Origin: a virus
DNA length: 64,000 nt
Direction: 5' to 3' (one strand)
Virus record (IMG/VR): IMGVR_UViG_3300037722_000745
Location: 229,116-293,115 of that record
Shown: piece after piece, positions 1,798 through 64,000 of the stretch
Numbering within the stretch: the first letter of the stretch is position 1
Layout of the letters: every line of letters begins with the position of its first letter
Position numbers and translations under genes: made by a program
The notes under the pieces: generated by a model
Databases searched by the model: none
The model's input: the letters and a program-made list of their open reading frames with translations, nothing else
Told to the model about the DNA's origin: nothing

Positions 1798-2748
1798 CTA
1801 ACCCACATGCCGAAACACTACAAGACGACCTTCCCGCTCCGCCTGGCGAATGACCGGCGGCAGAGATTCTAAACTCAACCAAGCATCCCCGCGGGTGCCG
1901 CCCGCAAAATCCGTGTCGTCGTAGTGTGCCGTCAGACAGATGCCCGCGTCGATGATCTGTAGAGTCCGAGCGTCGCATGTGCACTCGTAACGCCGCCCAC
2001 CCATCCGGAACCGCACGACCATCTCGTTGCGTCGCGGGGCCTGCCGGTGATCGAGATACTCAGCCTCACCAACCGCGAGAGCCGCCCGAGCCGCGGTCCC
2101 GAAATCCTCTTGGGCCAACGCCCGCCGGCCAGCACCATCACCGAGCTGCTCCGCGATCTCCCGACGACGGGTTTCCCGCTGCCGTTCCTCTTCCTCACGC
2201 TGAAGGCGTTCCGCCAGCTCCCGCCGACGCCGCTCCGCCTCCAACCGCCGCCACCGCTCAAGCGTGAAGGCGACATCCAAAGCCGGCGACACCTCTCGGA
2301 TATCAGCTAGCGTATCCTTGCCGTCCAGAAAGGCCGTCTGCACCTCGAACTCGGGCCCCAGAGGCATTTCTTGCTGGATGTAGACCAACGGGCCGTCCTC
2401 GGACACGCGGCCCGCAGAGACCCGTACGAAGCGATCTAGGCCCGGTTCGATGAGATGGACCCGCTCCGTCTCGCTCTTAAAGGAGGCGAGCTTCCTTTGC
2501 GAAGCCGACACGAGCCGATCGCCGACCAGGTAGCCTACCTCTCGGTACTTGAGCTGCTCCGGCTCGGGATCACACACCTCCTGGACCCGAGCCGTCCGAC
2601 CGCCCACCGAGAACCGAACCCAGCCATGCTCCGCCGGCAGCCGACCCTCGATCACCCACCGACGTGGGCCCGACCGGAGGGACCTACCCCCAATCCAAGG
2701 CGCGACAAGCGTCTCGCCTTCAGTCGCAAGTAAGTCTCTCCAACCCAT
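1798..2748 (-). CDS. Conserved protein of the Ubl cluster, putative E2-like C-terminal domain; contains an in-frame CRISPR-like repeat
   Basis: Start MGWRDLL aligns with paralog MTWRTLL; coiled coil, then IIDAGICL (cf. E2 G-x-ICL catalytic Cys) followed by a helix; E2 assignment is inference. Confidence 0.55.
   Translation of the reverse strand: MGWRDLLATEGETLVAPWIGGRSLRSGPRRWVIEGRLPAEHGWVRFSVGGRTARVQEVCDPEPEQLKYREVGYLVGDRLVSASQRKLASFKSETERVHLIEPGLDRFVRVSAGRVSEDGPLVYIQQEMPLGPEFEVQTAFLDGKDTLADIREVSPALDVAFTLERWRRLEAERRRRELAERLQREEEERQRETRRREIAEQLGDGAGRRALAQEDFGTAARAALAVGEAEYLDHRQAPRRNEMVVRFRMGGRRYECTCDARTLQIIDAGICLTAHYDDTDFAGGTRGDAWLSLESLPPVIRQAEREGRLVVFRHVG
2468..2503 (-). repeat. Solitary CRISPR-like repeat, family A
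   Basis: TTCGCAAAGGAAGCTCGCCTCCTTTAAGAGCGAGAC; same architecture as the array repeat at 14640-14894. Confidence 0.85.
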
Positions 2749-2903
2749 GGCCCAGCCACCTATTACACCGATTAGGCTGCCAGCAAACAACCAAAACGAA
2801 GGGATTCGCCCCATCAAAGTGGAATTACTACCACTGTCACGGCGTCCAAATTTTGGTTTGGGATGTCACATGAGGGTTAATTAAACACCCTGATTTCAAC
2901 GAC

Positions 2904-3185
2904 GTGTTGGGTTTGGCCTACTTCCTGCAAGCCTGGCGGAGCCCTCCTGGGGCCAAAATGGAGATGAAAATGAAAGACACAGAACGCCTGCTGCCCTGGA
3001 ACCAACACGGCGACATTCACCACACGTTCACGAACAAAGGGTCTGGAATTGTCTACCCGCACGACGAAGGCTTCCACTGGGAAGTTTTTGGTGGTGGAGA
3101 CAGCTCCTGGCACGACCAGGCGGAATCTCTACACTCAGCTAAAGCCCACGTAGAAGGCACCTTTGTGGGTCGCGGCCTGATTTAG
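2904..3185 (+). CDS. Small hypothetical protein inserted in opposite orientation
   Basis: ORF between the two paralogs, followed by a hairpin at ~3195-3231. Confidence 0.5.
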   Translation: MLGLAYFLQAWRSPPGAKMEMKMKDTERLLPWNQHGDIHHTFTNKGSGIVYPHDEGFHWEVFGGGDSSWHDQAESLHSAKAHVEGTFVGRGLI

Positions 3186-3214
3186 ATCGACAAGCGGGGC
3201 GTCGTCTAATTTCA

Positions 3215-3598
3215 CTACCAGACGACGCCCCCACCTCGTTTTTCAAGCCGGCCCGCAGAGACCCGTACAAAGCGATCTAGGCCCGGTTCGATGAGATGGA
3301 CCCGCTCCGCAGCACGGAGAACCTCCCCGTCCGCTTGTCCAGCCTGAACCGAGGACGGTACGAGGCGATCTCCAACGAGATAGCCAACCTGCCTGTGCCA
3401 CAGGCTTTCTAACTCAGGTTCGGCCAGAGCCTTGACCTGAGCCTTACGTCCCTCCAACGCAAACTCAATCCAGCCATGCTCTACAGGAAGGCTCCCCTCG
3501 ATGACCCAGCGACGGGAGCCCGACCGGAGGGACCGGCCCCCAACCCAAGGTGCGACAATCGTCTCACCTTCTTTCTGAAGTAGGGTCCTCCAAGTCAT
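3215..3598 (-). pseudogene. Truncated paralog of the N-terminal half of 1798-2748
   Basis: APWVGGRSLRSG...VGYLVGDRLV...ERVHLIEPGLDRFVRVSAGR, then abrupt stop; ~60 nt (3250-3309) nearly identical to 2409-2468. Confidence 0.85.
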
Positions 3599-4527
3599 GA
3601 CTCTCCAACCCTAATCTTCCAGGACTCCAAACTCTCACCACGTCTTCTACGTCGGGCCAACTTCAGTCTTGCTTCGGGGGTACTAAGAGCCTTCGTTATA
3701 GCCTCGCTATGTTTGGCTTTAACTTCGGGGATACTGAGTGTCTGGGCTATAGCCCTACCGCGTTTCTCTTTCTCCCCAGGTTGAGCCCATTGGCCTTTCA
3801 TCCTACGACTCATAGCGGCCAGCCGTTCCAAAGTCATTGATGCTTGAACACCAATCTTATGGCGCTTCTTCACCTCAGGTAGGGCCAGTCTCTTAGCTGC
3901 CTCAATGCTTAGCTTCTTTCGCACCTCACTTGTATACCCGGCTTTTTGAAGCTTGATGCGTTGCCCCCTTTCCTCGGCCGAGTACCCAGCCCAAGATGCC
4001 TTAAGACCCGCACTACGTTTCTCCTTCTCACCGGGTCTGGAGTAAACCTCCAACATCTTAGCTCTACGACGAGCTTTAGAATCAGGTTGACTGCAGGCCA
4101 AGATCAACGCTTCACGGTGCCTAGCCTTTACGTCGGGCCGTGCCATAGCTAACTTTACCCCAGCACTGTTCTTAGCTCGAACCTCCGGCCTATTCTGAGC
4201 CTCTTTCCCAGACACCGACATTTTCCGTCGAGTCTCTGCCGAAGGCTTCCCGTTTGACCCACCTGTCTTCAGATTGTACCCAAGCGGAGACAGAGAGGTG
4301 GCCACCCATTTAATTTCCAGCGCATCCAATTCCTCTTTCGAGGATGCCTCACCAACGACCTCAAACACGAATTTGTCTCGGCCATACTTGGCGATAGCCG
4401 CCCGCAAAGCGTGGCAATGGCTGTCAGTCCTGAAATGATGTGACCACCTCTCCGAAGGGTTGATGGTTTGACCGTGGTAACATTTTCCGCTGACCAAACA
4501 ACGAATCCTGTAAACCAAACCGTACAC
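3595..4527 (-). CDS. GIY-YIG homing endonuclease (Seg-like) with NUMOD3-type repeats
   Basis: GLVY-x-YHGQT, R, E, GYN motifs; repeated SAETRRKMS/PEVKAK segments. Confidence 0.88.
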   Translation of the reverse strand: MYGLVYRIRCLVSGKCYHGQTINPSERWSHHFRTDSHCHALRAAIAKYGRDKFVFEVVGEASSKEELDALEIKWVATSLSPLGYNLKTGGSNGKPSAETRRKMSVSGKEAQNRPEVRAKNSAGVKLAMARPDVKARHREALILACSQPDSKARRRAKMLEVYSRPGEKEKRSAGLKASWAGYSAEERGQRIKLQKAGYTSEVRKKLSIEAAKRLALPEVKKRHKIGVQASMTLERLAAMSRRMKGQWAQPGEKEKRGRAIAQTLSIPEVKAKHSEAITKALSTPEARLKLARRRRRGESLESWKIRVGES

Positions 4528-4537
4528 AACCGCAGTT

Positions 4538-6475
4538 TTAGCAAAAGGCTGCTGGCTTCTGCAACAGATCCGTCTTGAGAATGGTTTCCACGAGGGTTAC
4601 TCGCGGAGCGGCCTTTACCACTGCCCTACCTACCGGCGTGGCAGCGATCATGGCTCGGATGGTAGGCGGGATCGCGTAGGGATCCGCGAAGATCCCCTCG
4701 TCGATCATGAAGCACGGGATGCCGAGTTGGGCTGCCGTGTCCGTGACCGCGTGGTACATGGGGGAGCTGCGGACCTTCAAGAAGCCAAATGCAATCGGGT
4801 TGAGGCCCGAAGCTTGGACCGCCTTATGGAACGGGCCAGCCTCCTCATCTCCGACGAAGATAAACAACACATCCTCGTCCGGCTGAGGCTTATGTTGATT
4901 GAGAGCCCGAACCCCCGCTCCGTAGTCAGTCCCTCCTCCTGCATGGATCCCGCGGAACGCCTGTTCGACGCCCGCTGCGGATTCATGCTTAAGGGCAATC
5001 TCTCGCCCCGTAGTGTTGAAGACCGAGATGTGCACCTGGTCCTTGGGGAAGCCCTGTAGGAACTTCGCCAAGTAGCGCTTGGCTTCGGTGATCGCGTTCT
5101 GCATGGATCCCGAGATGTCCACCATGAAGTAGATCCGCAAACCCTTCACGACTTCCTCGACCGCCGCCTTGAGGGCGTTGTCGGCCGCCTCGTTCAGCTT
5201 CTCTTGGGTCGCCTTCGACCGCACTCGGGTCGCGATGTTCGCTGCCCGCATGTCGTCGGCTTCCTTAGTGGCACACTCCCACCGCTCTCGAATCTCCTGG
5301 ACCTCAAGAAGTCCAAGCTCTTCGAGCGTTGGGGTTGCGATCAAAAGGTCCTTGTTGGAAAGAGACCCTGCCTCGATGGCTGCCGCCACAATCGCCCGCG
5401 TCAGCCCCATACCCTTCGGCAGGAGCCCCACGATGCGCTTGAAGTTAGGCTTGGTCGCAACGATAGTCTCGCAGACCTGCTCCTCCGAAAGGCCCTCCCA
5501 GGACTCCGCAGCCTTGACAGCCTGGCCGATGGCGACGGTACGGTGACCCTCGTCGGCCTGCTGCTGCCCCCACCGCAGCGTCTCGAAGAACTTTGGTGAG
5601 GTCGGCTTGTACCGGCAGGCGATGGCGAGTTCGATCACCTTCGTCCGGAAGCCCGCCTTGACGAGGCCCTCCAACATCTGAGGGTTCTCTTCACGGTACC
5701 GGAGCCACTTCTCCGCCGCCTTGGGCCAACGACCCATGAACGGCCGACGAGCGGACTTGCCAAAGCCCAGCTCCCGGTTGATCTCGGCCACCTGCGGCAG
5801 CCGTAGGATGTCGTGGATCCGCATTAGAAGCTTGGGATCGAATGTCTTGATCTCGTTCTTCTGTTGTGCCCCGTCACCTTGAGAGCGGGACCGGGTGAGC
5901 AGCAGCATGGCCTCACCGACATCCCGGTAATCCTCGTCGAAGAACAGGACCTTGCCGTTCTCAACAACCGGGTCACCCTTGCGGTATTGCACGAGCATGA
6001 ACGCCGCGAGAATGACCTTCAGGTCCCGGTGCTCCTGCCCGAATGCGTAGCTGGCCCACTTGGCGGCGAACTCGTTGTCGAGCTTCCAGACCTCGGCGAC
6101 CTGCTTGTACATCCAGATCACGACCTCCGGGTAGAGGCCGGGCGGCTGGTAGCGACCAACAGCGCGGTTGCCGTCCTTAACGATGACATCGCCCTGAAGC
6201 ACTGGGGCGAGCGTCGCGGGGTTCCGACCCGTGGTCATCTTCCCGAGCTTGACCTTGGTGCCCTTCCGACGGCCCACGCCCTTGCGAAGCTCGTAGACGA
6301 TCTTGTCGCCCTCTTCCTCTGCGTGGGTCACCGGCAGCCACTTCGTGCCCACCACGGAGCCAGGATCTGGAATCACTACGCCTGGTCGGTTGTGCATTGC
6401 GTGATCAGAATACGAGAGGACCGTCTGGAGGATTCTCTCAGCCGGCCCGAGTGCGTTCTGTTCGTGATTTGGCAC
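4538..6475 (-). CDS. vWA-domain protein with TROVE/Ro60-like helical N-terminal region
   Basis: MIDAS DISGSM...GGTDYG...VGDEE; DNEFAAKWASYA and AESWE segments resemble TROVE; GTG start after GAGAGG. Confidence 0.7.
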   Translation of the reverse strand: MPNHEQNALGPAERILQTVLSYSDHAMHNRPGVVIPDPGSVVGTKWLPVTHAEEEGDKIVYELRKGVGRRKGTKVKLGKMTTGRNPATLAPVLQGDVIVKDGNRAVGRYQPPGLYPEVVIWMYKQVAEVWKLDNEFAAKWASYAFGQEHRDLKVILAAFMLVQYRKGDPVVENGKVLFFDEDYRDVGEAMLLLTRSRSQGDGAQQKNEIKTFDPKLLMRIHDILRLPQVAEINRELGFGKSARRPFMGRWPKAAEKWLRYREENPQMLEGLVKAGFRTKVIELAIACRYKPTSPKFFETLRWGQQQADEGHRTVAIGQAVKAAESWEGLSEEQVCETIVATKPNFKRIVGLLPKGMGLTRAIVAAAIEAGSLSNKDLLIATPTLEELGLLEVQEIRERWECATKEADDMRAANIATRVRSKATQEKLNEAADNALKAAVEEVVKGLRIYFMVDISGSMQNAITEAKRYLAKFLQGFPKDQVHISVFNTTGREIALKHESAAGVEQAFRGIHAGGGTDYGAGVRALNQHKPQPDEDVLFIFVGDEEAGPFHKAVQASGLNPIAFGFLKVRSSPMYHAVTDTAAQLGIPCFMIDEGIFADPYAIPPTIRAMIAATPVGRAVVKAAPRVTLVETILKTDLLQKPAAFC

Positions 6476-6520
6476 GATCCACCTCTCTCGCAACCCTCCG
6501 CATGGGAGGGGAATTGCCGC

Positions 6521-6556
6521 GTCTCGCCTCAGCGAGCAAATTACCGCTAAGGAGGA
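6521..6556 (-). repeat. Solitary CRISPR-like repeat, family B (Cas12j-like 3' half)
   Basis: ...TTTGCTCGCTGAGGCGAGAC in the 5' leader of the vWA gene. Confidence 0.7.
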
Positions 6557-6666
6557 TGACGGCGCCCGTGGTGTCTACTACACCGAAAAGCCAGAACTCG
6601 ACCGAGTTAAAGAGAGCGGGTTTTTGCTGGACCCTGGATTCCCCCGGAAGGGCAGGTCGAGTTTAG

Positions 6667-6738
6667 TCGGGGTGACAGGGATCGAACCTGCGACCTCTCG
6701 CCCCCAAAGCGAGCGCTCTACCACTGAGCAACACCCCG
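6667..6738 (-). tRNA. tRNA-Pro(TGG)
   Basis: Cloverleaf, loop TT-TGG-GG, GGTTCGATCC. Confidence 0.92.
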
Positions 6739-6790
6739 AGAAATCTGTTATACGCTGGCTAGACTACGACAACCACGTGCTCCGAGAGAT

Positions 6791-7021
6791 TTGACCGTGG
6801 ATCACACCTACGACCGCCGCCCGAAGACCGCCACTGATCGCGAGTTCCAAGAGATGGCCGAGATCTACCTCAAGAAGCTCGGCTACTCGCCTAAGCAGGT
6901 CCGCAGCTGGACTCGCAACATGGCCCAGGCCATCGAGAAGGCGTTGAAGTCCTCGCGTGAAACTCGCGAAGTTGAATACCATATCGGTCTCGAAGAGGAA
7001 GGCGAGGAACGTCTTCGCTAA
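6791..7021 (+). CDS. Hypothetical protein
   Basis: ORF with phage-like codon usage. Confidence 0.55.
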   Translation: MTVDHTYDRRPKTATDREFQEMAEIYLKKLGYSPKQVRSWTRNMAQAIEKALKSSRETREVEYHIGLEEEGEERLR

Positions 7022-9458: not shown

Positions 9459-9494
9459 GTCCCACTCTTGATGGAGGTGGGCTTCCCTTACCAT
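9459..9494 (-). repeat. Solitary CRISPR repeat, family A
   Basis: 28 nt (GTCCCACTCTTGATGGAGGTGGGCTTCC on +) identical to the array repeat. Confidence 0.92.
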
Positions 9495-11760: not shown

Positions 11761-11796
11761 GTCTCACTCTAGAGGGAGGTGAGCTTCCCTCGCAAC
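11761..11796 (-). repeat. Solitary CRISPR-like repeat, family A
   Basis: GTTGCGAGGGAAGCTCACCTCCCTCTAGAGTGAGAC, 4 nt upstream of tRNA-Arg(TCT). Confidence 0.88.
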
Positions 11797-14240: not shown

Positions 14241-14276
14241 GTCTCGCTCTTAGGGGAGGCGAGCTTCCTTTGATCC
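14241..14276 (-). repeat. Solitary CRISPR-like repeat, family A
   Basis: GGATCAAAGGAAGCTCGCCTCCCCTAAGAGCGAGAC. Confidence 0.85.
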
Positions 14277-14480: not shown

Positions 14481-14561
14481 AGGTCCGAGGCGAATTGTCG
14501 ACTCCGCGTCTCCAGCTTCCGTACGCAATAGCTGGCGCTCTAACACTGAGCTACTCGAACC
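14481..14561 (-). tRNA. Atypical tRNA-like gene with expanded anticodon loop
   Basis: Acceptor, D and T arms pair; anticodon stem CCAGCT/AGCTGG closes a 12-nt loop; T loop GTCGACAA. Confidence 0.6.
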
Positions 14562-14639: not shown

Positions 14640-14894
14640 GTCCCACTCTTGATGGAGGTGGGCTTCCGTTGTGACCGTGCGGATTTCGGAGATGACGCTG
14701 AAGCCGTCATCGGTCCCACTCTTGATGGAGGTGGGCTTCCGTTGTGACTTCGCTCCGATCGCAATCCCGCAGGATCGCGACCAGCCGTCCCACTCTTGAT
14801 GGAGGTGGGCTTCCGTTGCTGCCAGGCAGGACGGCTCGAAGTGGCTAAGATGATGTTGGTCCCACTCTTGATGGAGGTGGGCTTCCGTTGCTGC
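14640..14894 (-). CRISPR. Orphan CRISPR array: 4 x 36-nt repeats, 3 spacers (37, 38, 36 nt)
   Basis: Repeats at 14640, 14713, 14787, 14859; minus strand G(T/C)(C/A)(A/G)CAACGGAAGCCCACCTCCATCAAGAGTGGGAC; unique spacers; leader on the high-coordinate side. Confidence 0.96.
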
Positions 14895-15075
14895 AGTGCG
14901 CTCAAAAAGACCTAAAATTTCCAAAGAGCTGAGAGCCGGATTGCGAGAGCCTCTGCAAACTCCCGCTAAATCCGACTCCATGGAGAGTACTACACTGTTC
15001 ACAGAGAGCGCAAGACCCTAAATTCATTGTCTTGCGAGCGATCCCCGGGCTCCAGGCGTCACCGAGGCTCTCGCG
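14895..15075 (-). promoter_or_regulatory. CRISPR leader
   Basis: GCGAGAGCCTC...GGGGATCGCTCGCAA...GGCTCTCGCAA plus an AT-rich proximal part; a similar sequence recurs at 56901-57014. Confidence 0.7.
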
Positions 15076-15241
15076 TTCCGATGCCGTCCAACAAGGAAAC
15101 TCCACGTCCCGGCGAAGAGTTGAGAGCATGGGCAGTACCGTGCCCACAAGGGCCAGTCCTCTCGCTCAACCCCGCGAAGTCGAGCTGTTTCAGGAATGTG
15201 ACACGGGTTTTGGTTGATGCTGGCCAAACATGACTACCCAG

Positions 15242-15318
15242 TGGAGCCGGCGGGGATCGAACCCGCCGCAAAGCCGCATTGCAAGTGCAGCTCGCCCCCG
15301 CCAACCGATACGGCTGAG
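15242..15318 (-). pseudogene. Degenerate tRNA-Ala(TGC)
   Basis: Anticodon arm, T arm and 3' acceptor intact; 5' acceptor/D arm disrupted. Confidence 0.7.
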
Positions 15319-15325
15319 GGGTATC

Positions 15326-15718
15326 TCACCGAAGAGATGACGGCTCATAAAGTGTCAATAGCTCCTTTGCCCAATCTACGAGGTCCGACACCCTCGCGCC
15401 GGTAGGTTGCGGACTTCGCCACAACTCCAGGTTGCACGGTCTGTTGTCGTCCCTAACCCCGTTCTTGTGGTGTACCGTCTCACCCGGCAAGAGATAGCGG
15501 CCAAGGACTTCCTCCATCACAAGGATGTGCTCAAACACGTACGGACCGCTTGTAGCCCTAGGGTGCAGCGGAACTCGCCGCATCACGTATCGAATCGGAT
15601 CGCCGCACCCAAGGCAGGGTACCTTTGGGAGAGATCGCCGCCGACACATCGGGCATTTCCGATGTCTGCTACTTGGTGTGAAAAGTCTGCAACACGAGCT
15701 ACAAGTTTTGACAGCCAT
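15326..15718 (-). CDS. HNH endonuclease (HNH_3-like), possibly internally deleted
   Basis: YVFEHILVMEEVLGR...VHHKNGVRDDNRPCNLEL; N-terminal Cys pairs. Confidence 0.85.
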   Translation of the reverse strand: MAVKTCSSCCRLFTPSSRHRKCPMCRRRSLPKVPCLGCGDPIRYVMRRVPLHPRATSGPYVFEHILVMEEVLGRYLLPGETVHHKNGVRDDNRPCNLELWRSPQPTGARVSDLVDWAKELLTLYEPSSLR

Positions 15719-15781
15719 TAGTCACCGAGACAGTCTCGGCGTGCAGGGTACACCACGTGCAGGTTGCCATCTTCGTACCCT

Positions 15782-16180
15782 TGGACTCGGTGGGAATCGA
15801 ACCCACGTCCTAGAAAGCTATCGAACAGCGTCTACGTGCGTAGCGTGACTTCGGACTCGGTTAAGGTCGTGCCCATGCCTCACGCCGGCTTCCACCTGGG
15901 GCGTGACTGGTTTTCCAGTCTTGCCTCCACCACCGATCTAGCGACCTAAGGTCTTGCGACCCGTTTCCCACAGCCAATCGGACTCTGTGGTGCAGCCCTG
16001 CGTTTACTTACGCCGCTCGAAATCGAAGCAGGGAATCTACCCCGAGCGACGGCTCAGGCAGCCTGAGCAAAGCCGTTATAGTTGGCTTTTCTTGTTTGGT
16101 CGGCTTGATAACCCGGCCTGCTGACCAACCGGGGCACGCTGCTGCTCGAATTACCTCCCAGTCGAAACCTTTACGAGCCC
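15782..16180 (-). ncRNA. ssrA: tmRNA, tag ANYNGFAQAA*
   Basis: GGGCTCG/CGAGTCC-A acceptor with G3:U, GGTTTCGAC 5' motif, GGACGTGGGTTCGATTCCCAC 3' motif, resume frame GCC AAC TAT AAC GGC TTT GCT CAG GCT GCC TGA. Confidence 0.95.
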
Positions 16181-16209
16181 TAAATCTGTCATCGCATACA
16201 CCAAAAGTC

Positions 16210-16284
16210 TGGAGCCCCTTCCCGGAATCGAACCGAGTTATCTGGTTTACAAGACCAGCGCATCACCAACTATGCTTAAGGGGC
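16210..16284 (-). tRNA. tRNA-Thr(TGT)
   Basis: Cloverleaf, CCA. Confidence 0.92.
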
Positions 16285-16312
16285 TTAGCTACGCCAGCAG
16301 AAAACGCTAGAG

Positions 16313-16488
16313 TTCTCACACCGGTCCGCACTCTAGCAGCGGCCCTACATACCCCGGGCCGCCAGCCTAGCTTGGCAGCCCACCAGGGGCCTGGTGTCAG
16401 GCGGGACGCCGTCCGAATACCTCAGAGCTTTTGACCGGGCTAGAGAGCCCAAGATGAGGGTCATCGTTCAGCATCGACCGGTGGAGAA
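16313..16488 (-). ncRNA. Long rod-shaped ncRNA, 6S RNA-like
   Basis: ~175 nt with paired ends (CACCGGTC/GACCGGTG, CCCT/AGGG, CTTGGG/CCCGGG, CTAGC/GCTAG) and internal GGCGTCCCGCCTG resembling 6S GGCACCCACCTG. Confidence 0.45.
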
Positions 16489-16510
16489 AATGGTAGCGAC
16501 GGAGGGAGTC

Positions 16511-16546
16511 GTCTCGCCTCAGCGAGCAATCAAGTTGGCGGCCACC
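16511..16546 (-). repeat. Solitary CRISPR-like repeat, family B (Cas12j-like)
   Basis: GGTGGCCGCCAACTTGATTGCTCGCTGAGGCGAGAC followed by GACTCCCTCCGTCGCTACCA. Confidence 0.85.
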
Positions 16547-16601
16547 GCCAAAAGCCCCGTAAAGTTTAGCCCGCGTTCGAGATGAGCGACCTGGTTAGCG
16601 A

Positions 16602-16762
16602 TTGCTTGTTTTCCGAACAAGTGCGTTTGCCAGTTACGCCACAAAGGCCGGACGGCCTTCGACGGGACTCGAACCCGCATATGCATGTAAGATCGTTCTG
16701 GCGGAACGCGAGCTGGTGGGGAGTCTTGGAGTCGAACCAAGTTTGCTTGTAAGCGCCGCTGG
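16602..16762 (-). pseudogene. Cluster of tRNA fragments (a 5' half, a 3' half, and a Val(TAC)-like 3' part at 16715-16762)
   Basis: T arms GGTTCGAGTCC and GGTTCGACTCC with acceptor ends but no matching 5' halves; GCCTTTGTGGCGTAACTGGCAAACGC 5' half with no 3' half. Confidence 0.6.
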
Positions 16763-16953
16763 CGGCTCCCTTGCGGGAGCGAGAGGCAGTGCTGGAGTAT
16801 CGCTTTCGATTTACCGTCGAAATAGAGGCCAACCCTCCTACTCCCCAGATGCCGGTGCTCACCACACCACCGTCGTCAACGCAAGGGACCGGCGCCCCTG
16901 TGAAGCTCTCTGGCGATGATGCAGTACCCTCTCTAATACACCAAAGAAGGCGG

Positions 16954-17025
16954 AGCAGGTAGAGGGAATCGAACCCTCGCCTCCAGCTTGGCAAGCTGGC
17001 ATCCTACCGACTGGACGATACCTGC
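16954..17025 (-). tRNA. tRNA-Gly(GCC)
   Basis: Cloverleaf, loop TT-GCC-AA. Confidence 0.92.
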
Positions 17026-17026
17026 A

Positions 17027-17101
17027 TGGTCGGGGTGGCGGGAGTCGAACCCGCGACCTTCTGTCCCCCAGACAGACGCCCTTCCACTGAGCTACACCCC
17101 G
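17027..17101 (-). tRNA. tRNA-Pro(GGG)
   Basis: Cloverleaf, ACCA. Confidence 0.92.
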
Positions 17102-17121
17102 TTGTTTGGTTGCGGGAGCCG

Positions 17122-17157
17122 GTCTCGCTCTTTCAGGTGGCGAGCTACCACGGTTTT
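17122..17157 (-). repeat. Solitary CRISPR-like repeat, family A
   Basis: AAAACCGTGGTAGCTCGCCACCTGAAAGAGCGAGAC followed by a duplicate of the tRNA-fMet 3' end. Confidence 0.8.
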
Positions 17158-17166
17158 TCAAACCAG

Positions 17167-17238
17167 TTGCGGGAGCCGGAATCGAACCGACGAGGCTTGG
17201 GTTATGAGCCCGAGTTGAGGGCCAACACTCTTCCCGCG
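17167..17238 (-). tRNA. Initiator tRNA-fMet(CAT)
   Basis: C1xA72 mismatch, GGG/CCC anticodon stem. Confidence 0.85.
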
Positions 17239-17239
17239 G

Positions 17240-17312
17240 TGGCCAGAGAGGGAATCGAACCCCCGACGCCTTCATCTTCAGCGAAGCGCTCTACCAACTG
17301 AGCTATCTGGCC
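17240..17312 (-). tRNA. tRNA-Phe(GAA)
   Basis: Cloverleaf, loop CT-GAA-GA. Confidence 0.93.
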
Positions 17313-17316
17313 GTTG

Positions 17317-17357
17317 TGGTGGGTCCTCTCGGGATCGAACCGAGTTCTCCGATTTTT
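17317..17357 (-). pseudogene. tRNA 3' half (probably Phe-type) directly after a repeat
   Basis: AAAAATCGGAGAACTCGGTTCGATCCCGAGAGGACCCACCA. Confidence 0.75.
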
Positions 17358-17393
17358 GTCTCACTCTTGTAGGGGGTGAGCTTCCCTTACTCC
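17358..17393 (-). repeat. Solitary CRISPR-like repeat, family A
   Basis: GGAGTAAGGGAAGCTCACCCCCTACAAGAGTGAGAC. Confidence 0.85.
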
Positions 17394-17420
17394 CCACTGG
17401 CCTACTAGCCAACCACTCAG

Positions 17421-17492
17421 TGCTCCTACGGGGAATCGAACCCCGGCCGCCGGGGTGAAAACCCAGCATCCTGACCACTAGACGATAGGAGC
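17421..17492 (-). tRNA. tRNA-Glu(TTC)
   Basis: Cloverleaf. Confidence 0.92.
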
Positions 17493-17494
17493 GT

Positions 17495-17570
17495 TGGCGT
17501 CCCTACAGAGATTTGAACTCTGGTTTCCAGATTGAGAATCTGGCGTCCTGGCCGACTAGACGATAGGGAC
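17495..17570 (-). tRNA. tRNA-Glu(CTC)
   Basis: Cloverleaf, GCCA. Confidence 0.92.
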
Positions 17571-17571
17571 G

Positions 17572-17647
17572 TGGAGCCCGCGATCGGGATCGAACCGACT
17601 ACCTCCTGCGTACGAAGCAGGCGCCCTACCTTCAGGGCCTCACGGGC
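17572..17647 (-). tRNA. tRNA-Thr(CGT)
   Basis: Cloverleaf, CCA. Confidence 0.88.
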
Positions 17648-17711
17648 AAAGCGTGGCGAGCCTTCGGGGCCTCTTACACAGATCGCCGTACAGACGATGC
17701 GACCACACTAG

Positions 17712-17780
17712 CAGGCCGGCAGGGAATCGAACCCTGTCCTACGGATTTGGAGTCCGTTTGGCTTCCTTAGCCCCCGACCT
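17712..17780 (-). tRNA. tRNA-Trp(CCA)
   Basis: Loop CT-CCA-AA, short D arm. Confidence 0.85.
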
Positions 17781-17825
17781 AGATTTATCTCGCTCTTCCG
17801 CCAGCCAAGGCATACACGCATTGCT

Positions 17826-17861
17826 GTCTCGCTCTTGAAGGAGGCGAGCTTCCTTTGCGAG
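17826..17861 (-). repeat. Solitary CRISPR-like repeat, family A
   Basis: CTCGCAAAGGAAGCTCGCCTCCTTCAAGAGCGAGAC; a partial repeat end AAGAGCGAGA recurs ~28 nt downstream. Confidence 0.88.
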
Positions 17862-17893
17862 AGTCCTGCCACACCGTCTGATTAAACGCCTCT

Positions 17894-17969
17894 TGGCTCC
17901 AGGGGAGGGACTCGAACCCCCATCTTTCCGGTTAACAGCCGGACGCATTACCATTAGTGCTACCCTGGA
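17894..17969 (-). tRNA. tRNA-Asn(GTT)
   Basis: Cloverleaf, GCCA. Confidence 0.93.
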
Positions 17970-18103
17970 ATATGACAGGTGGGGACCCCGAAGCCTTAGG
18001 AGCCGCAAGGCCCCCACCATCGGCGAGATGATCCCCGCTACAGAGCCGCTCCCCGAAGGTCGCGGGTACCGCGTGCGAGGCTACATTCGCCGCACCGAAT
18101 TCC

Positions 18104-18122
18104 TATTCAGTTGTCATAGAGC
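18104..18122 (-). promoter_or_regulatory. boxA-like antitermination sequence
   Basis: GCTCTATGACAACTGAATA resembles rrn boxA (GCTCTTTRACAA) plus typical tail. Confidence 0.55.
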
Positions 18123-18195
18123 TGTAGGTGCTTCCACGGGACCTGTGTCCCGAAGTGCTTTCGCCCCCTCCATTGGAGGCGCTCTTTCGCACCAG

Positions 18196-18267
18196 TGGGT
18201 GGCATGGGAATCGAACCCACCTGTGCCTGATTAAGAGTCAGGTGCATCGCCTTGATGCTAACCACCC
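18196..18267 (-). tRNA. tRNA-Lys(CTT)
   Basis: Cloverleaf. Confidence 0.9.
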
Positions 18268-18473
18268 GCTGTCTTCGCCTGGATGAGAGCCAACAGCTCG
18301 TCGAGCAACTCATCGTCCGCGTAGAGAAGTCGGACTAGGATCTGTTTCTGTGTCACCTTGCCTTTCGCGTCCTTCGTGTGGCGGACCACGCAGCCGTTGT
18401 CGAAGTAGACCACCTGCTCGGTGAGTCGATCTTCATCCGCGTTGTCCAGTCGTCGTTCGTTCAGAACCCTCAT
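18258..18473 (-). CDS. Hypothetical protein
   Basis: ORF between two tRNA-Lys genes. Confidence 0.6.
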   Translation of the reverse strand: MRVLNERRLDNADEDRLTEQVVYFDNGCVVRHTKDAKGKVTQKQILVRLLYADDELLDELLALIQAKTAGG

Positions 18474-18480
18474 GCGTCGT

Positions 18481-18557
18481 TGGTGGGGCCGACAGGAATC
18501 GAACCTGCAACCGTCGAGTTAAAAGCTCGCTGCTCTGCCTGGTTGAGCTACGGCCCC
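18481..18557 (-). tRNA. tRNA-Lys(TTT)
   Basis: Cloverleaf, ACCA. Confidence 0.93.
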
Positions 18558-18632
18558 AGAAGGGTCTTCGGAGTCGTAGCTACGTTTGAGTCGAGAAGTC
18601 ATCGTTCGCTTACATTCATCGTTCGCTGACTT

Positions 18633-18714
18633 TGGTGGGAGTGGAGGGAATCGAACCCCCTGCGCCTTTCGACAACCGGTTTACAGCCAGTCTCCCGTCC
18701 ATCGGGTCACTCCC
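18633..18714 (-). tRNA. tRNA-Tyr(GTA)
   Basis: Variable arm, loop CT-GTA-AA, ACCA. Confidence 0.88.
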
Positions 18715-18802
18715 ATGAGTTGGTTGGAGAGTGAGCCTCGATAGCTTTCGTGGATGGGCTTTGTACGTGGGCTGATCATGTGAAATCCTTGGTCCAGAAA
18801 CG

Positions 18803-18833
18803 AAAAAAGCCACCTGGGTTTTCCCTAGGCGGC
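18803..18833 (-). terminator. Intrinsic terminator at the head of the tRNA operon (candidate attenuator)
   Basis: GCCGCCTAGGG-AAAA-CCCAGGTGGC-TTTTTT. Confidence 0.8.
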
Positions 18834-18871
18834 CTTCGTCATGCACAGAGTGTGAGTCAACGAGAGTCCGC

Positions 18872-19051
18872 CTAAGTATCCGCCTCCGGGTTCTGATTGC
18901 GGCGCGTAAACGCGGAGGCTTCGACATGGGTCGTAGGCTTAATGGCGCCTGCATAACCGAGTCTCCCAAAGCCCAGTCCCAGGACACGCCACGACCCCGA
19001 CAAGGCTTTGCCTTGCTCGAAGCGTGCTGGTGTTGAAGTCCGGGACATCAT
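18872..19051 (-). CDS. Putative 59-aa leader peptide
   Basis: MMSRTSTPARFEQ...NPEADT*, lying between the promoter and the terminator. Confidence 0.4.
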   Translation of the reverse strand: MMSRTSTPARFEQGKALSGSWRVLGLGFGRLGYAGAIKPTTHVEASAFTRRNQNPEADT

Positions 19052-19133
19052 GTCGATCACTCTGGTTTGGACTGTCGTTCTTTGGGGCCGTTGTCGGTGG
19101 GTTATGAACCCAACACGAGCTGACCGTTCTACC

Positions 19134-19162
19134 TTCCTACGGTCTACAAGAGGAAAGTGCAA
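19134..19162 (-). promoter_or_regulatory. sigma70-like promoter for the tRNA operon
   Basis: TTGCAC-N17-TAGGAA. Confidence 0.45.
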
Positions 19163-19216
19163 CCGTCCTCGCGTCGAATTCGGATCTTTTTCTCCGAACC
19201 TCGAGAACTCAACCAC

Positions 19217-19825
19217 TTACGGTGTGATGCCTACTTGAAGGTATGTGAGGGTACCGAGAAAATCTGGGTTGCCTTCACCAAACCCAGAGCGAAGCGTGTT
19301 GAGTCGGTCTGCCAACCACCCAAAAGTGGGATCTGCATCCCACGTGCCCGGGTAAGATACCCCCTTGAAGTCCGTGAAGCGGATGTACTCCCCGCTAGCA
19401 ACCGGAGCTGTCGAGTCCCACGCCAGACGGATCTGCAAACGCGTCCCCTCCGCGATGGCATCCCCTGAGCCCGCCAACGAGTTGACCGCCGTACTACCTC
19501 CGGTGCTGTTGAAGATAGCACACTCGGGCCGGTTGGAGTCGTCCATGTCGATCCGGATCTTGCCTCCATTGCCGACCAACTCCATCACCGTGCTCCCCGC
19601 CCCCAACGCTGGGGCGACAACCTCAACCTCGATAATTCCTCGGATCCCAGGATGATCGATCGCAGTAGCGCCTACTCGCCTAGTTGTCACCAACAACCCC
19701 GGAAGCGACCTGAAGGTGGTCCCTGGAGGGGTGTTCAGGCTGTTAGACCCAGAACTAACGAGTGCTGGATCCATCACTAGGCCCGTCGGGTAGAGAATGT
19801 GGGAGTGGTCGGGGATGTTTGGCAT
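19217..19825 (-). CDS. Beta-rich hypothetical protein (lectin-like/virion)
   Basis: G/T/S-rich; IRLAWD motif typical of ConA-like sandwiches. Confidence 0.55.
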   Translation of the reverse strand: MPNIPDHSHILYPTGLVMDPALVSSGSNSLNTPPGTTFRSLPGLLVTTRRVGATAIDHPGIRGIIEVEVVAPALGAGSTVMELVGNGGKIRIDMDDSNRPECAIFNSTGGSTAVNSLAGSGDAIAEGTRLQIRLAWDSTAPVASGEYIRFTDFKGVSYPGTWDADPTFGWLADRLNTLRSGFGEGNPDFLGTLTYLQVGITP

Positions 19826-57299: not shown

Positions 57300-57335
57300 C
57301 CCGCAAGGGAAGCTCACCTCCCTAAAGAGTGAGAC
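57300..57335 (+). repeat. Solitary CRISPR-like repeat, family A
   Basis: CCCGCAAGGGAAGCTCACCTCCCTAAAGAGTGAGAC. Confidence 0.88.
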
Positions 57336-63349: not shown

Positions 63350-63625
63350 CTAGCGGCGCTTCGAGTTCGAGCTGACTAGCCGGTACTTGAAACTGTAGCT
63401 CGGGCGTCGGTGCACCCGACTCTTGAATCGATCTACGACGCGCACGTACTCGACCCGACGCAGCTTCAGAAGCTGACGCAGCTCTCCCTTGAAGCGTCGT
63501 TCGAGGCACGGCCGTTCCCAGAAGCTCAATTCGGCTTTCCGTACCGATTCGAGAAGGGATTCTCTCGCTAGCGGCCGGCCCCGAGATAGCTCCTGTAGGA
63601 TTGCGTCTCGAATACTGAGGGCCAT
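63350..63625 (-). CDS. Hypothetical basic (wHTH-like) protein
   Basis: MALSIRDAILQEL... Confidence 0.55.
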   Translation of the reverse strand: MALSIRDAILQELSRGRPLARESLLESVRKAELSFWERPCLERRFKGELRQLLKLRRVEYVRVVDRFKSRVHRRPSYSFKYRLVSSNSKRR

Positions 63626-63644
63626 ACCGTACTCTAGAACCTGA

Positions 63645-63790
63645 CCGTTCCTGATCGTGAGATCAGGCGGCACAGGGCTTACCTAGTTCCTGCTTCCACG
63701 AGGACAGCCAGGCCGCTGTGGCACCTGGACTTACATTCTCTCCACAGGCTGTCACCGAGGTACTCTCGGCCAACATCTTCAGATTCTTGG
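63645..63790 (-). mobile_element. Right end / omegaRNA region of the TnpB element
   Basis: GCCTGTGGAG...GAAGCAGGAA overlapping the tnpB 3' end, hairpin CCTGAT/ATCAGG, terminal GAACGG as in IS607-like ends. Confidence 0.6.
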
Positions 63791-64000
63791 CAGCGTTGTG
63801 ATCACGGTCATGCTCTACACCGCAATCCTGACACTGCCAATTACGCTCGGACAGCTCAAGATGCGGCTTGATGCAGCCGCACTCGGAACACGTCTTAGAG
63901 CTAGGGAACCAGCGGTCTGCTACCACGACTTGAGAGCCGTTCAAGGCAGCCTTGTATTCAAGCTGCCTTCTAAACTCGTGCATCCCGACATCCGAGATAG
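63663..64000 (-). CDS. tnpB: TnpB RNA-guided endonuclease, C-terminal part (IS607/IS605-like)
   Basis: EFRRQLEYKA...FPSSKTCSECG...WQCQDCG.EHDRDHNAAKN. Confidence 0.93.
   Translation of the reverse strand, partial: ISDVGMHEFRRQLEYKAALNGSQVVVADRWFPSSKTCSECGCIKPHLELSERNWQCQDCGVEHDRDHNAAKNLKMLAESTSVTACGENVSPGATAAWLSSWKQELGKPCAA

What the first reader, a model, noticed from the sequence alone, without database searches (positions are those of the whole stretch)
17102..17420. Family A repeats followed by a duplicated tRNA-fMet end and by a tRNA half
Seen: the repeat at 17122 is followed by CGGCTCCCGCAACCA, which duplicates the 3' end of the adjacent tRNA-fMet. In that tRNA the same sequence is preceded by TTC. 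The repeat at 17358 is followed by a tRNA 3' half starting inside the anticodon loop; if the loop was TTGAAAA (Phe), the replaced bases are TTG. Inference: family A also marks TTN PAM positions. The 17122 unit also recalls the short tRNA-homing guides of type V-K transposons.
Basis: partly seen in the sequence, partly recalled or inferred. Interest (0 to 1): 0.7.

Follow-up and report, generated by a model that had tools for sequence, protein, structure and literature searches.

The report
CRISPR handles grafted onto phage tRNAs
In a giant bacterial virus, two lone copies of a Cas12m-type CRISPR guide handle are joined directly to pieces of the virus's own tRNA genes, just behind a triplet that likely served as the enzyme's recognition signal; they are likely scars of recombination between a CRISPR spacer and its target, which would remove or shorten the target and leave a ready-made guide against the older version of the gene.

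Summary
The units are real, with corrections. After the 17122 repeat 13 bp (not 15) duplicate the tRNA-fMet end, preceded by TTC. The 17358 repeat abuts a tRNA-Phe(GAA) half at G34|A35; both direct orthologues have CTG there, so only YTG is established. Family A is a type V-M (Cas12m-type) repeat: an array of it flanks a Cas12m homologue in related phage contigs, and its covarying pseudoknot matches the PmCas12m scaffold (published PAM YTN). No such effector was found in this 68%-complete record, which encodes CasPhi. Four of 12 solitary copies have a recoverable pre-junction triplet: TTC, YTG, TTG, TGC (3 of 4 YTN; background 0.11). The 3' join is exact; the 5' join varies (8-60 bp duplication, or deletion). 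Best reading (0.5): recombination/repair scars copied from repeat-spacer DNA; no donor spacer or empty allele was found. V-K homing is not supported. The scan noted the same anatomy earlier for the CasPhi repeat in this genome (e1-5376873). A second CasPhi phage has five truncated repeats each followed by its own adjacent gene's sequence.

The parts
17027..17101 (-). tRNA-Pro(GGG), native downstream gene
   Evidence: ARAGORN; Rfam
17107..17121 (-). Original 3' end of tRNA-fMet (13 duplicated nt at 17109-17121 plus CA), now directly behind the repeat; would be the start of the guide
17122..17149 (-). Solitary family A repeat, 28 nt, both stems intact, lacks the conserved AA at -31/-30
17150..17165 (-). 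16-nt filler of unknown origin; resembles a tRNA-Phe anticodon arm (weak hairpin, z -0.59); no source found
17166..17238 (-). tRNA-fMet(CAT) with initiator features; keeps TTC (17179-17181) plus 13 nt of the target; encoded CCA lost
17238..17312 (-). Intact tRNA-Phe(GAA), a different gene from the broken one
17317..17357 (-). 3' half of a second tRNA-Phe(GAA), starting at anticodon position 35 and ending in CCA
   Evidence: 29/30 nt to intact L023 tRNA-Phe; G006/L121
17358..17391 (-). Solitary family A repeat (28-nt core 17358-17385 plus at most 6 nt), bare, bridging a deletion; middle pair of the 3-bp stem mismatched
17392..17417 (-). 5' remnant of a roughly 97-nt tRNA-like RNA that is intact, also directly after a tRNA-Glu, in G010
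   Evidence: 23/26 nt, E 0.049 over all loci held, syntenic; local alignment runs on to 17388
17420..17492 (-). tRNA-Glu(TTC), upstream native gene
14640..14894 (-). Four-repeat family A CRISPR array, period 72-74, three spacers of 36-38 nt, no cas gene beside it
2468..2495 (-). Solitary family A repeat inside an ORF, in frame, in place of about 41 nt; the next 60 bp are 59/60 identical to a paralogue at about 3249-3308, where they follow TGC
9459..9486 (-). Solitary family A repeat, core identical to the array repeat; junction unresolved
11761..11788 (-). Solitary family A repeat 4 nt before tRNA-Arg(TCT); junction unresolved
14241..14268 (-). Solitary family A repeat 14 nt before tRNA-Leu(CAA); junction unresolved
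17826..17853 (-). Solitary family A repeat 45 nt before tRNA-Trp; junction unresolved
57308..57335 (+). Solitary family A repeat; junction unresolved

Best explanation
Each unit is a Cas12m-type CRISPR repeat joined directly to a piece of one of the phage's own tRNA genes, and was likely written there by recombination or repair between a repeat-spacer unit and its protospacer, which would put the repeat's last base against the first base after the PAM. Shown: the repeat class, the exact 3' joins, the variable 5' joins (13-bp duplication with a 16-nt filler at fMet; a deletion at Phe). Inferred: a spacer was once taken from that tRNA gene (host Cas1-Cas2, since none is in the record) into an array of this or a co-infecting relative; strand exchange within the spacer ran on into the repeat and rejoined the genome at a short microhomology; the product lost the PAM (Phe) or kept only 13 of 17 guide positions (fMet) and so would escape that guide. 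As the units lie on the tRNA operon strand, they would be co-transcribed and could be processed into guides against the ancestral allele, but use as guides is untested.
For: Family A array (6312-6831) and mini-array flank a 794-aa ORF in L061/L018; best hits Cas12m 23vw_A E 4e-24 and PADLOC Cas12u1 E 1e-44. 7 of 7 viral loci with this clade have an adjacent array with repeats of like build. Two covarying stems over 21 copies: 98.2% of 168 cells paired, 16 double changes, 0/500 shuffles; positions -28..-26/-17..-15 and -23..-19/-7..-3 match the PmCas12m scaffold. Pre-junction triplets TTC, YTG, TTG, TGC: 3 of 4 YTN, binomial p 0.005 at background 0.11. At C1:202553 the 8-bp duplicate rebuilds a stop-start join. 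At 17358 and 2468 the insert is a bare repeat of at most 34-35 nt. Solitary copies differ from the resident array repeat by up to 9 of 28 nt and share variants with repeats of other phages, as expected of several donors. A self-derived 35-nt spacer exists in a Cas12m-clade array of G018. The record has ORFs that look like RecA and SSB (my reading, no profile search). Same anatomy for CasPhi repeats: three copies after T-loop TTC here, and 5 of 5 units in G004.
Against: No donor spacer found: 0 of 47 spacers and 0 of 76 match these tRNA pieces. No empty allele in 4 runs laid. Only 4 of 12 solitary copies could be resolved; YTN was chosen after seeing the data, so p is optimistic; one triplet (TGC) and the G018 protospacer (ATC) do not fit YTN. 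No Cas12m in G000 (record 68% complete), and the related protein has R, G/E, D at the RuvC triad, so it would not cut (alignment). Dispersed Cas12m repeats in G017 and G018 show no target duplication. Intact stems and sigma-70-like promoters in front of several solitary copies suggest selection, not mere scars.
Confidence: 0.5

Rival explanations
1. The units are selected guide cassettes: co-transcribed with the tRNA operon, processed by Cas12m (or loaded by CasPhi) and used to silence or cut the ancestral tRNA alleles of co-infecting sister phages, or to throttle the phage's own operon through the 13-nt match.
For: Covarying stems kept; promoter-like TTGACA-17-TATTAA filler at C1:202553 and similar motifs before copies in L063, L092, L094; Cas12m guides are about 17 nt; the own record has at best 13/17 (fMet) and 12/17 (Phe) matches; mini-arrays against related viruses are known (PMC11656645).
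Against: 17122 lacks the AA at -31/-30 present in nearly all of the 21 copies, and 17358 has a broken pair in the 3-bp stem; no sigma-70-like promoter in 14800-19300; no effector in the record; no target allele found. Compatible with the best explanation as a later use.
Confidence: 0.2
2. Solitary repeat units acting as decoys (Racr-like) or RNA-processing marks, placed without regard to PAMs; the triplets are coincidence.
For: Solitary repeat units are common in viruses and often follow promoters (PMC10651486); three copies lie 4-14 nt before tRNA genes; dispersed copies also occur in G017 and G018; 8 of 12 junctions are unresolved.
Against: Does not explain target duplications that start at the base after the repeat, nor destruction of a tRNA-Phe; G004 shows 4 of 5 TBN (p 0.006); no family A array was found in 185,579 prokaryote genomes (2 single matches), so no host system to decoy is in view.
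Confidence: 0.12
3. The handle is copied from the crRNA itself at the R-loop (RNA-templated DNA synthesis), or extended on the target strand, giving new guides without Cas1.
For: Bare repeats at 17358 and 2468; 5'-truncated handles at 17122 and in all five G004 units; no Cas1 in the record (control rang in 7 of 14).
Against: No RVT_1 in the record (control rang in 3 of 14); several solitary copies keep all 36 nt or carry 16-41 nt of extra upstream DNA; no precedent in the papers read.
Confidence: 0.1
4. Aberrant half-site integration by host Cas1-Cas2 joined a PAM-trimmed genome end to a repeat, followed by repair.
For: Gives an exact repeat/post-PAM join (inference from the general acquisition mechanism, recalled).
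Against: Host unknown; no Cas1 in the record; does not by itself give short tandem duplications.
Confidence: 0.06
5. Remnant of a type V-K transposon homing guide.
For: Truncated repeat plus short match to a neighbouring tRNA 3' end.
Against: V-K has a GTN PAM, a 12-nt repeat, a 17-nt spacer read toward the left end and 46-82 nt to the transposon end (PMC9938897). Here: TTC, 28 nt, 13 nt in direct orientation, 16-nt filler, Cas12m-type scaffold. PF07282 finds only CasPhi and an IS607 TnpB.
Confidence: 0.02

Closest known systems
Type V-M CRISPR-Cas12m (GoCas12m, PMC11013384; PmCas12m, 10.64898/2026.03.26.714355)
   Same: 36-nt repeat with two stems at the same positions, repeat 5' of guide, T/C-rich PAM, non-canonical RuvC in the related phage protein
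   Different: Here 12 of 16 copies in the record are solitary and fused to the phage's own genes; the effector is absent from the 68% held; the related protein is 794 aa against about 600
Solitary repeat units / Racr RNAs (PMC10651486) and viral mini-arrays (PMC11656645, 10.1101/2023.03.03.530964)
   Same: Lone repeats in a phage genome away from cas genes, some behind promoters
   Different: The repeat belongs to a phage-borne system, not a known host one; the 3' flank is a native gene piece that starts after a PAM-like triplet, with duplication or deletion on the other side; the passages read describe no such joins
Type V-K CAST delocalized tRNA-homing guide (PMC9938897)
   Same: Shortened repeat and short match next to a tRNA 3' end
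   Different: PAM, repeat class and length, orientation, no transposon
TnpB right-end RNA of IS200/IS605 and IS607 (recalled, no call)
   Same: The handle sits where the target motif was and flanking DNA supplies a guide against the empty allele
   Different: No conserved left end, no transposase linked to family A, variable duplications or deletions
Spacer-mediated recombination between phages and CRISPR loci (Varble et al. 2019, recalled; not found in the library)
   Same: Crossover within spacer/protospacer homology joins repeat to target
   Different: There host locus with phage; here within and between phage genomes, leaving lone repeats

Membership tests
Type V-M (Cas12m) repeat | Occurs as a regular array next to a cas12m gene | tested here: met
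   L061/L018; in G000 itself the array has no cas gene beside it
Type V-M (Cas12m) repeat | Two-stem pseudoknot scaffold at the Cas12m positions | tested here: met
   against passages
Type V-M (Cas12m) system | cas12m gene in the same genome | tested here: inconclusive
   none in G000 by five searches (L246 rang as positive control in 126); record 68% complete
Type V-M (Cas12m) system | Binds without cutting; T/C-rich PAM | not testable with these tools
   RuvC triad R, G/E, D in P0014; one natural protospacer in the clade preceded by ATC
Type V-J (CasPhi) repeat | Single hairpin with 4-nt loop, arrayed next to casPhi | tested here: not met
   that is family B (C1:217705-218163 beside P0001); family A has an 11-nt loop and a second stem
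Solitary repeat unit / Racr | Lone repeat without neighbours or cas genes | tested here: met
Solitary repeat unit / Racr | Matches a host CRISPR repeat and inhibits it | tested here: inconclusive
   no array in GTDB by exact pattern; host unknown; inhibition not testable
Type V-K homing guide | GTN PAM, about 12-nt repeat, 17-nt spacer read toward the left end | tested here: not met
   TTC, 28 nt, 13 nt direct
Type V-K homing guide | Inside a Tn7-like transposon with cas12k, tnsB, tnsC, tniQ | tested here: not met
   only 16 nt between tRNA and repeat; TniQ and Mu-transpos_C searches were empty but their controls were empty too, so they add little
IS200/IS605 or IS607 end | Conserved left and right ends, no variable duplication | tested here: not met
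   upstream flanks unrelated among copies; duplications of 8, 13 and about 60 bp or deletion

The most novel reading that the evidence does not exclude
Huge phages carry a CRISPR allele drive: the guide handle gets written into the target in place of its PAM, so each event makes an immune allele that also encodes, from its own flank, a guide against the ancestral allele in co-infecting sister phages; two effector families (Cas12m and CasPhi) have done this repeatedly in one tRNA cluster, possibly without Cas1.
Probability: 0.2. Interest if true: 0.85.

Novelty: new variant of a known kind. Interest (0 to 1): 0.55.

Why it matters
It offers an origin for solitary CRISPR repeats in viruses, whose source is not given in the passages read, and it predicts that their 3' joins record the effector's PAM, which can be read from genomes alone. 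If the units are expressed, CRISPR handles behave like TnpB right ends, with flanking DNA as guide, inside a phage. It also bears on how phage type V systems without Cas1 gain guides, and it points to a clade of phage-borne Cas12m proteins of about 670-790 aa.

Tried and rejected
Family A pattern in viral contigs: 0 loci. Phe-half pattern in viral contigs: 0. GenBank phages: no CasPhi relative, only generic tRNA/HNH hits. Metagenome scan: 87 loci; I kept 12 loci from 10 contigs with the full 28-nt repeat (L018/L019, L033/L061, L023, L036, L037, L050, L062, L063, L092, L094) and dropped the other 75 as chance matches of a loose pattern. In G000, 3 of 19 hits at 9 mismatches were dropped as chance. 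0 of 12 related virus records hold family A; 0 of 16 hold a P0014 homologue. GTDB: 2 single matches, no array. Eight of 12 solitary junctions had no credible orthologue in 4.8 Mb (one search's output was cut and the question repeated). The filler has no source among loci held. L036 also has a repeat about 0.5 kb before its DNA ligase gene, but the intervening ORFs are not homologous, so conserved position is not shown. The 13-bp duplication equals the CasPhi3 non-target-strand cut at 13-15, but family A is not the CasPhi repeat and cross-loading is untested, so I do not rest on it. No RNA holder listed. Only four runs were laid on the locus, so empty alleles in the other 17 listed runs remain unexamined. 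Seven literature searches gave no paper on repeats joined at PAM positions; the library lacks most subscription papers. Supplements were not read; the Cas12m repeat and PAM tables there could bear on the repeat assignment.

Full report
Setting. The window is C1:229116-293115 of G000, a 323-kb virus record, 68% complete. It holds 36 tRNA/tmRNA genes, all on the minus strand. The record encodes a 718-aa CasPhi (Cas12j) protein (best solved relative CasPhi-2, E 3e-159) beside a seven-copy array of another repeat, family B, and an IS607 element with an interrupted tnpB at the window's right end.

Observation. On the minus strand the first unit reads: tRNA-fMet ending in TTC plus 13 nt (17166-17178), a 16-nt filler, the 28-nt repeat (17122-17149), the same 13 nt, CA, a short linker and tRNA-Pro. 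Such a match arises at 0.3% of 20,000 random positions of the tRNA region. The second unit is a repeat (17358-17385) followed at once by a 41-nt tRNA half. An intact tRNA-Phe(GAA) in the related contig L023 matches it at 29 of 30 nt, and G006 has another; the join lies between G34 and A35. Both orthologues have CTG before the join, as do 8 of 9 Phe(GAA) genes in related loci, so the triplet is YTG and TTG is unproven. Upstream of this repeat, 17392-17417 matches (23/26, E 0.049, same position after a tRNA-Glu) the start of an intact tRNA-like RNA in G010. The insert is therefore a bare repeat of at most 34 nt bridging a deletion. Contigs from runs X1, X4 and X8 cover both joins without differences; no empty allele appeared in the four runs laid.

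What family A is. G000 has 16 credible copies: a four-copy array (14640-14894, spacers 36-38 nt) and 12 solitary ones, 8 of them in the window. A metagenome scan gave 10 contigs with the full repeat among 87 loci; three of them (L036, L037, L061/L018) share genes with G000. In L061/L018 a family A array and mini-array flank a 794-aa ORF whose best hits are Cas12m (PDB 23vw, E 4e-24; PADLOC Cas12u1, E 1e-44), with R, G/E and D at the RuvC triad. All 7 viral loci found with a profile of this clade have an adjacent array of like build. Over 21 copies two stems covary (98.2% of 168 cells paired, 16 double changes, 0/500 shuffles, slid controls 28-58%; the tool warns that related sequences can beat shuffles). 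Their positions match those given for the PmCas12m scaffold, a 33-nt handle 5' of a 17-nt guide with PAM YTN; other orthologues use YTTS, TTV (10.64898/2026.03.26.714355, passages) or TTN and T/C-rich PAMs (PMC11013384, passages). No cas12m was found in G000, nor Cas1 or a reverse transcriptase; a third of the genome is missing.

Do the repeats mark PAMs? Four of 12 solitary joins can be resolved. 17122: TTC, 13-bp duplication. 17358: YTG, deletion. C1:202553: TTG, 8-bp duplication around a promoter-like filler, where the duplicate rebuilds a stop-start join of two ORFs. 2468: TGC in the paralogue that shares the next 60 bp, while five orthologues have GTC, GTC, TTC, CTC and CGC. Three of four are YTN (p 0.005 at background 0.11) and two of four certainly TTN (p 0.014); the motif was chosen after the fact and n is small. 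The one natural protospacer for the clade, a perfect 35-nt self-match in G018, follows ATC. T at -2 is the common thread. The CasPhi repeat behaves alike: three lone copies follow the T-loop TTC of tRNAs here (two share one duplicated cassette), and in G004 five truncated repeats are each followed by 11-33 nt of the adjacent own gene, after TCG, TCA, TCA, TTC and CCT (TBN as a CasPhi PAM is recalled, TTN for CasPhi3 is). Against generality: dispersed repeats in G017 and G018 show no duplication, and G002 and G003 have no lone CasPhi repeat.

Mechanism. An exact 3' join at +1 and a variable 5' join is what copying from a repeat-spacer template into its protospacer would leave. I favour DNA recombination or repair (0.5): some copies keep all 36 nt or carry extra upstream DNA, the copies match repeat variants of different phages, and self-derived spacers do enter such arrays. 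The product would be immune (PAM gone at Phe; 13 of 17 positions left at fMet) and would carry a guide against the old allele. Steps not shown: the donor spacer (0 of 47 and 0 of 76 spacers match), the empty allele, the enzyme, and expression. Both units here have flaws (17122 lacks the conserved AA; 17358 has a broken pair), and no sigma-70-like promoter lies in 14800-19300, which lowers the selected-guide rival to 0.2. Decoy or processing marks (0.12), RNA-templated writing (0.1), aberrant Cas1-Cas2 integration (0.06) and V-K homing (0.02) follow. V-K guides have a GTN PAM, a 12-nt repeat and read toward a transposon end 46-82 nt from the PAM (PMC9938897, passages); none of this holds.

Known and new. 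Solitary repeats and mini-arrays in viruses are known (PMC10651486, PMC11656645, 10.1101/2023.03.03.530964; passages), as are CasPhi phages without acquisition genes (PMC7162821, passages; 10.1101/2021.06.27.449965, passages). Seven searches found no account of repeats joined at PAM positions with target duplication. New here: family A is Cas12m-type, the rule extends to a second effector class with T at -2 rather than strict TTN, and G004 gives an independent example. Verdict: real feature, new variant of a known kind, mechanism inferred; interest 0.55.

Noticed in passing
L099:7652-7872 (G004): Mini-array of five 5'-truncated CasPhi repeats just upstream of a casPhi gene with D-E-D motifs; each is followed by 11-33 nt of the adjacent own 249-aa gene, on either strand, after TCG, TCA, TCA, TTC, CCT. 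Two are perfect matches of 27 and 33 nt, which looks like tolerated self-targeting.
   Followed up: partly
L061:3376-5760 (also L018): 794-aa Cas12m-like protein in a huge-phage contig; 132 cluster representatives at E <= 1e-30, 7 viral loci all with arrays.
   Followed up: partly
L247/L275 array and L286:161-195 (G018): A 35-nt spacer, present twice, matches its own genome perfectly, preceded by ATC.
   Followed up: no
L133, G010 C1:about 386281-386379: Roughly 97-nt tRNA-like RNA with an 8-bp or longer terminal stem and a T arm, not called by ARAGORN in my runs as Phe or Met and found in no other locus held; its 5' end survives at window 17392-17417.
   Followed up: partly
window 1798-3598: Two paralogous genes after a GIY-YIG-like ORF (3595-4527, motif read by eye); the 339-aa copy is read through a family A repeat in frame.
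   Followed up: partly
G000 C1:202553-202631 (L004): Sigma-70-like promoter plus family A repeat inserted at a stop-start join with an 8-bp duplication, upstream of the DNA ligase-like gene.
   Followed up: yes
G001 C1:139431: One solitary CasPhi repeat inside that phage's tRNA cluster; junction not resolved.
   Followed up: partly
G000 C1:228500-228564: A family B repeat directly abuts a short tRNA-like element that seems to lack a D arm.
   Followed up: no
window 63350-64000 and beyond (L001): IS607 element: serine recombinase plus tnpB interrupted by a stop.
   Followed up: no
window 16650-16800: Several T-arm/CCA tRNA fragments and degenerate tRNA-like pieces not called by ARAGORN; Rfam also finds an uncalled tRNA at 14482-14560.
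   Followed up: no
L246:3931 (G017): Solitary Cas12m repeat about 40 nt before the cas12m match, like the standalone repeats reported upstream of cas12a.
   Followed up: no
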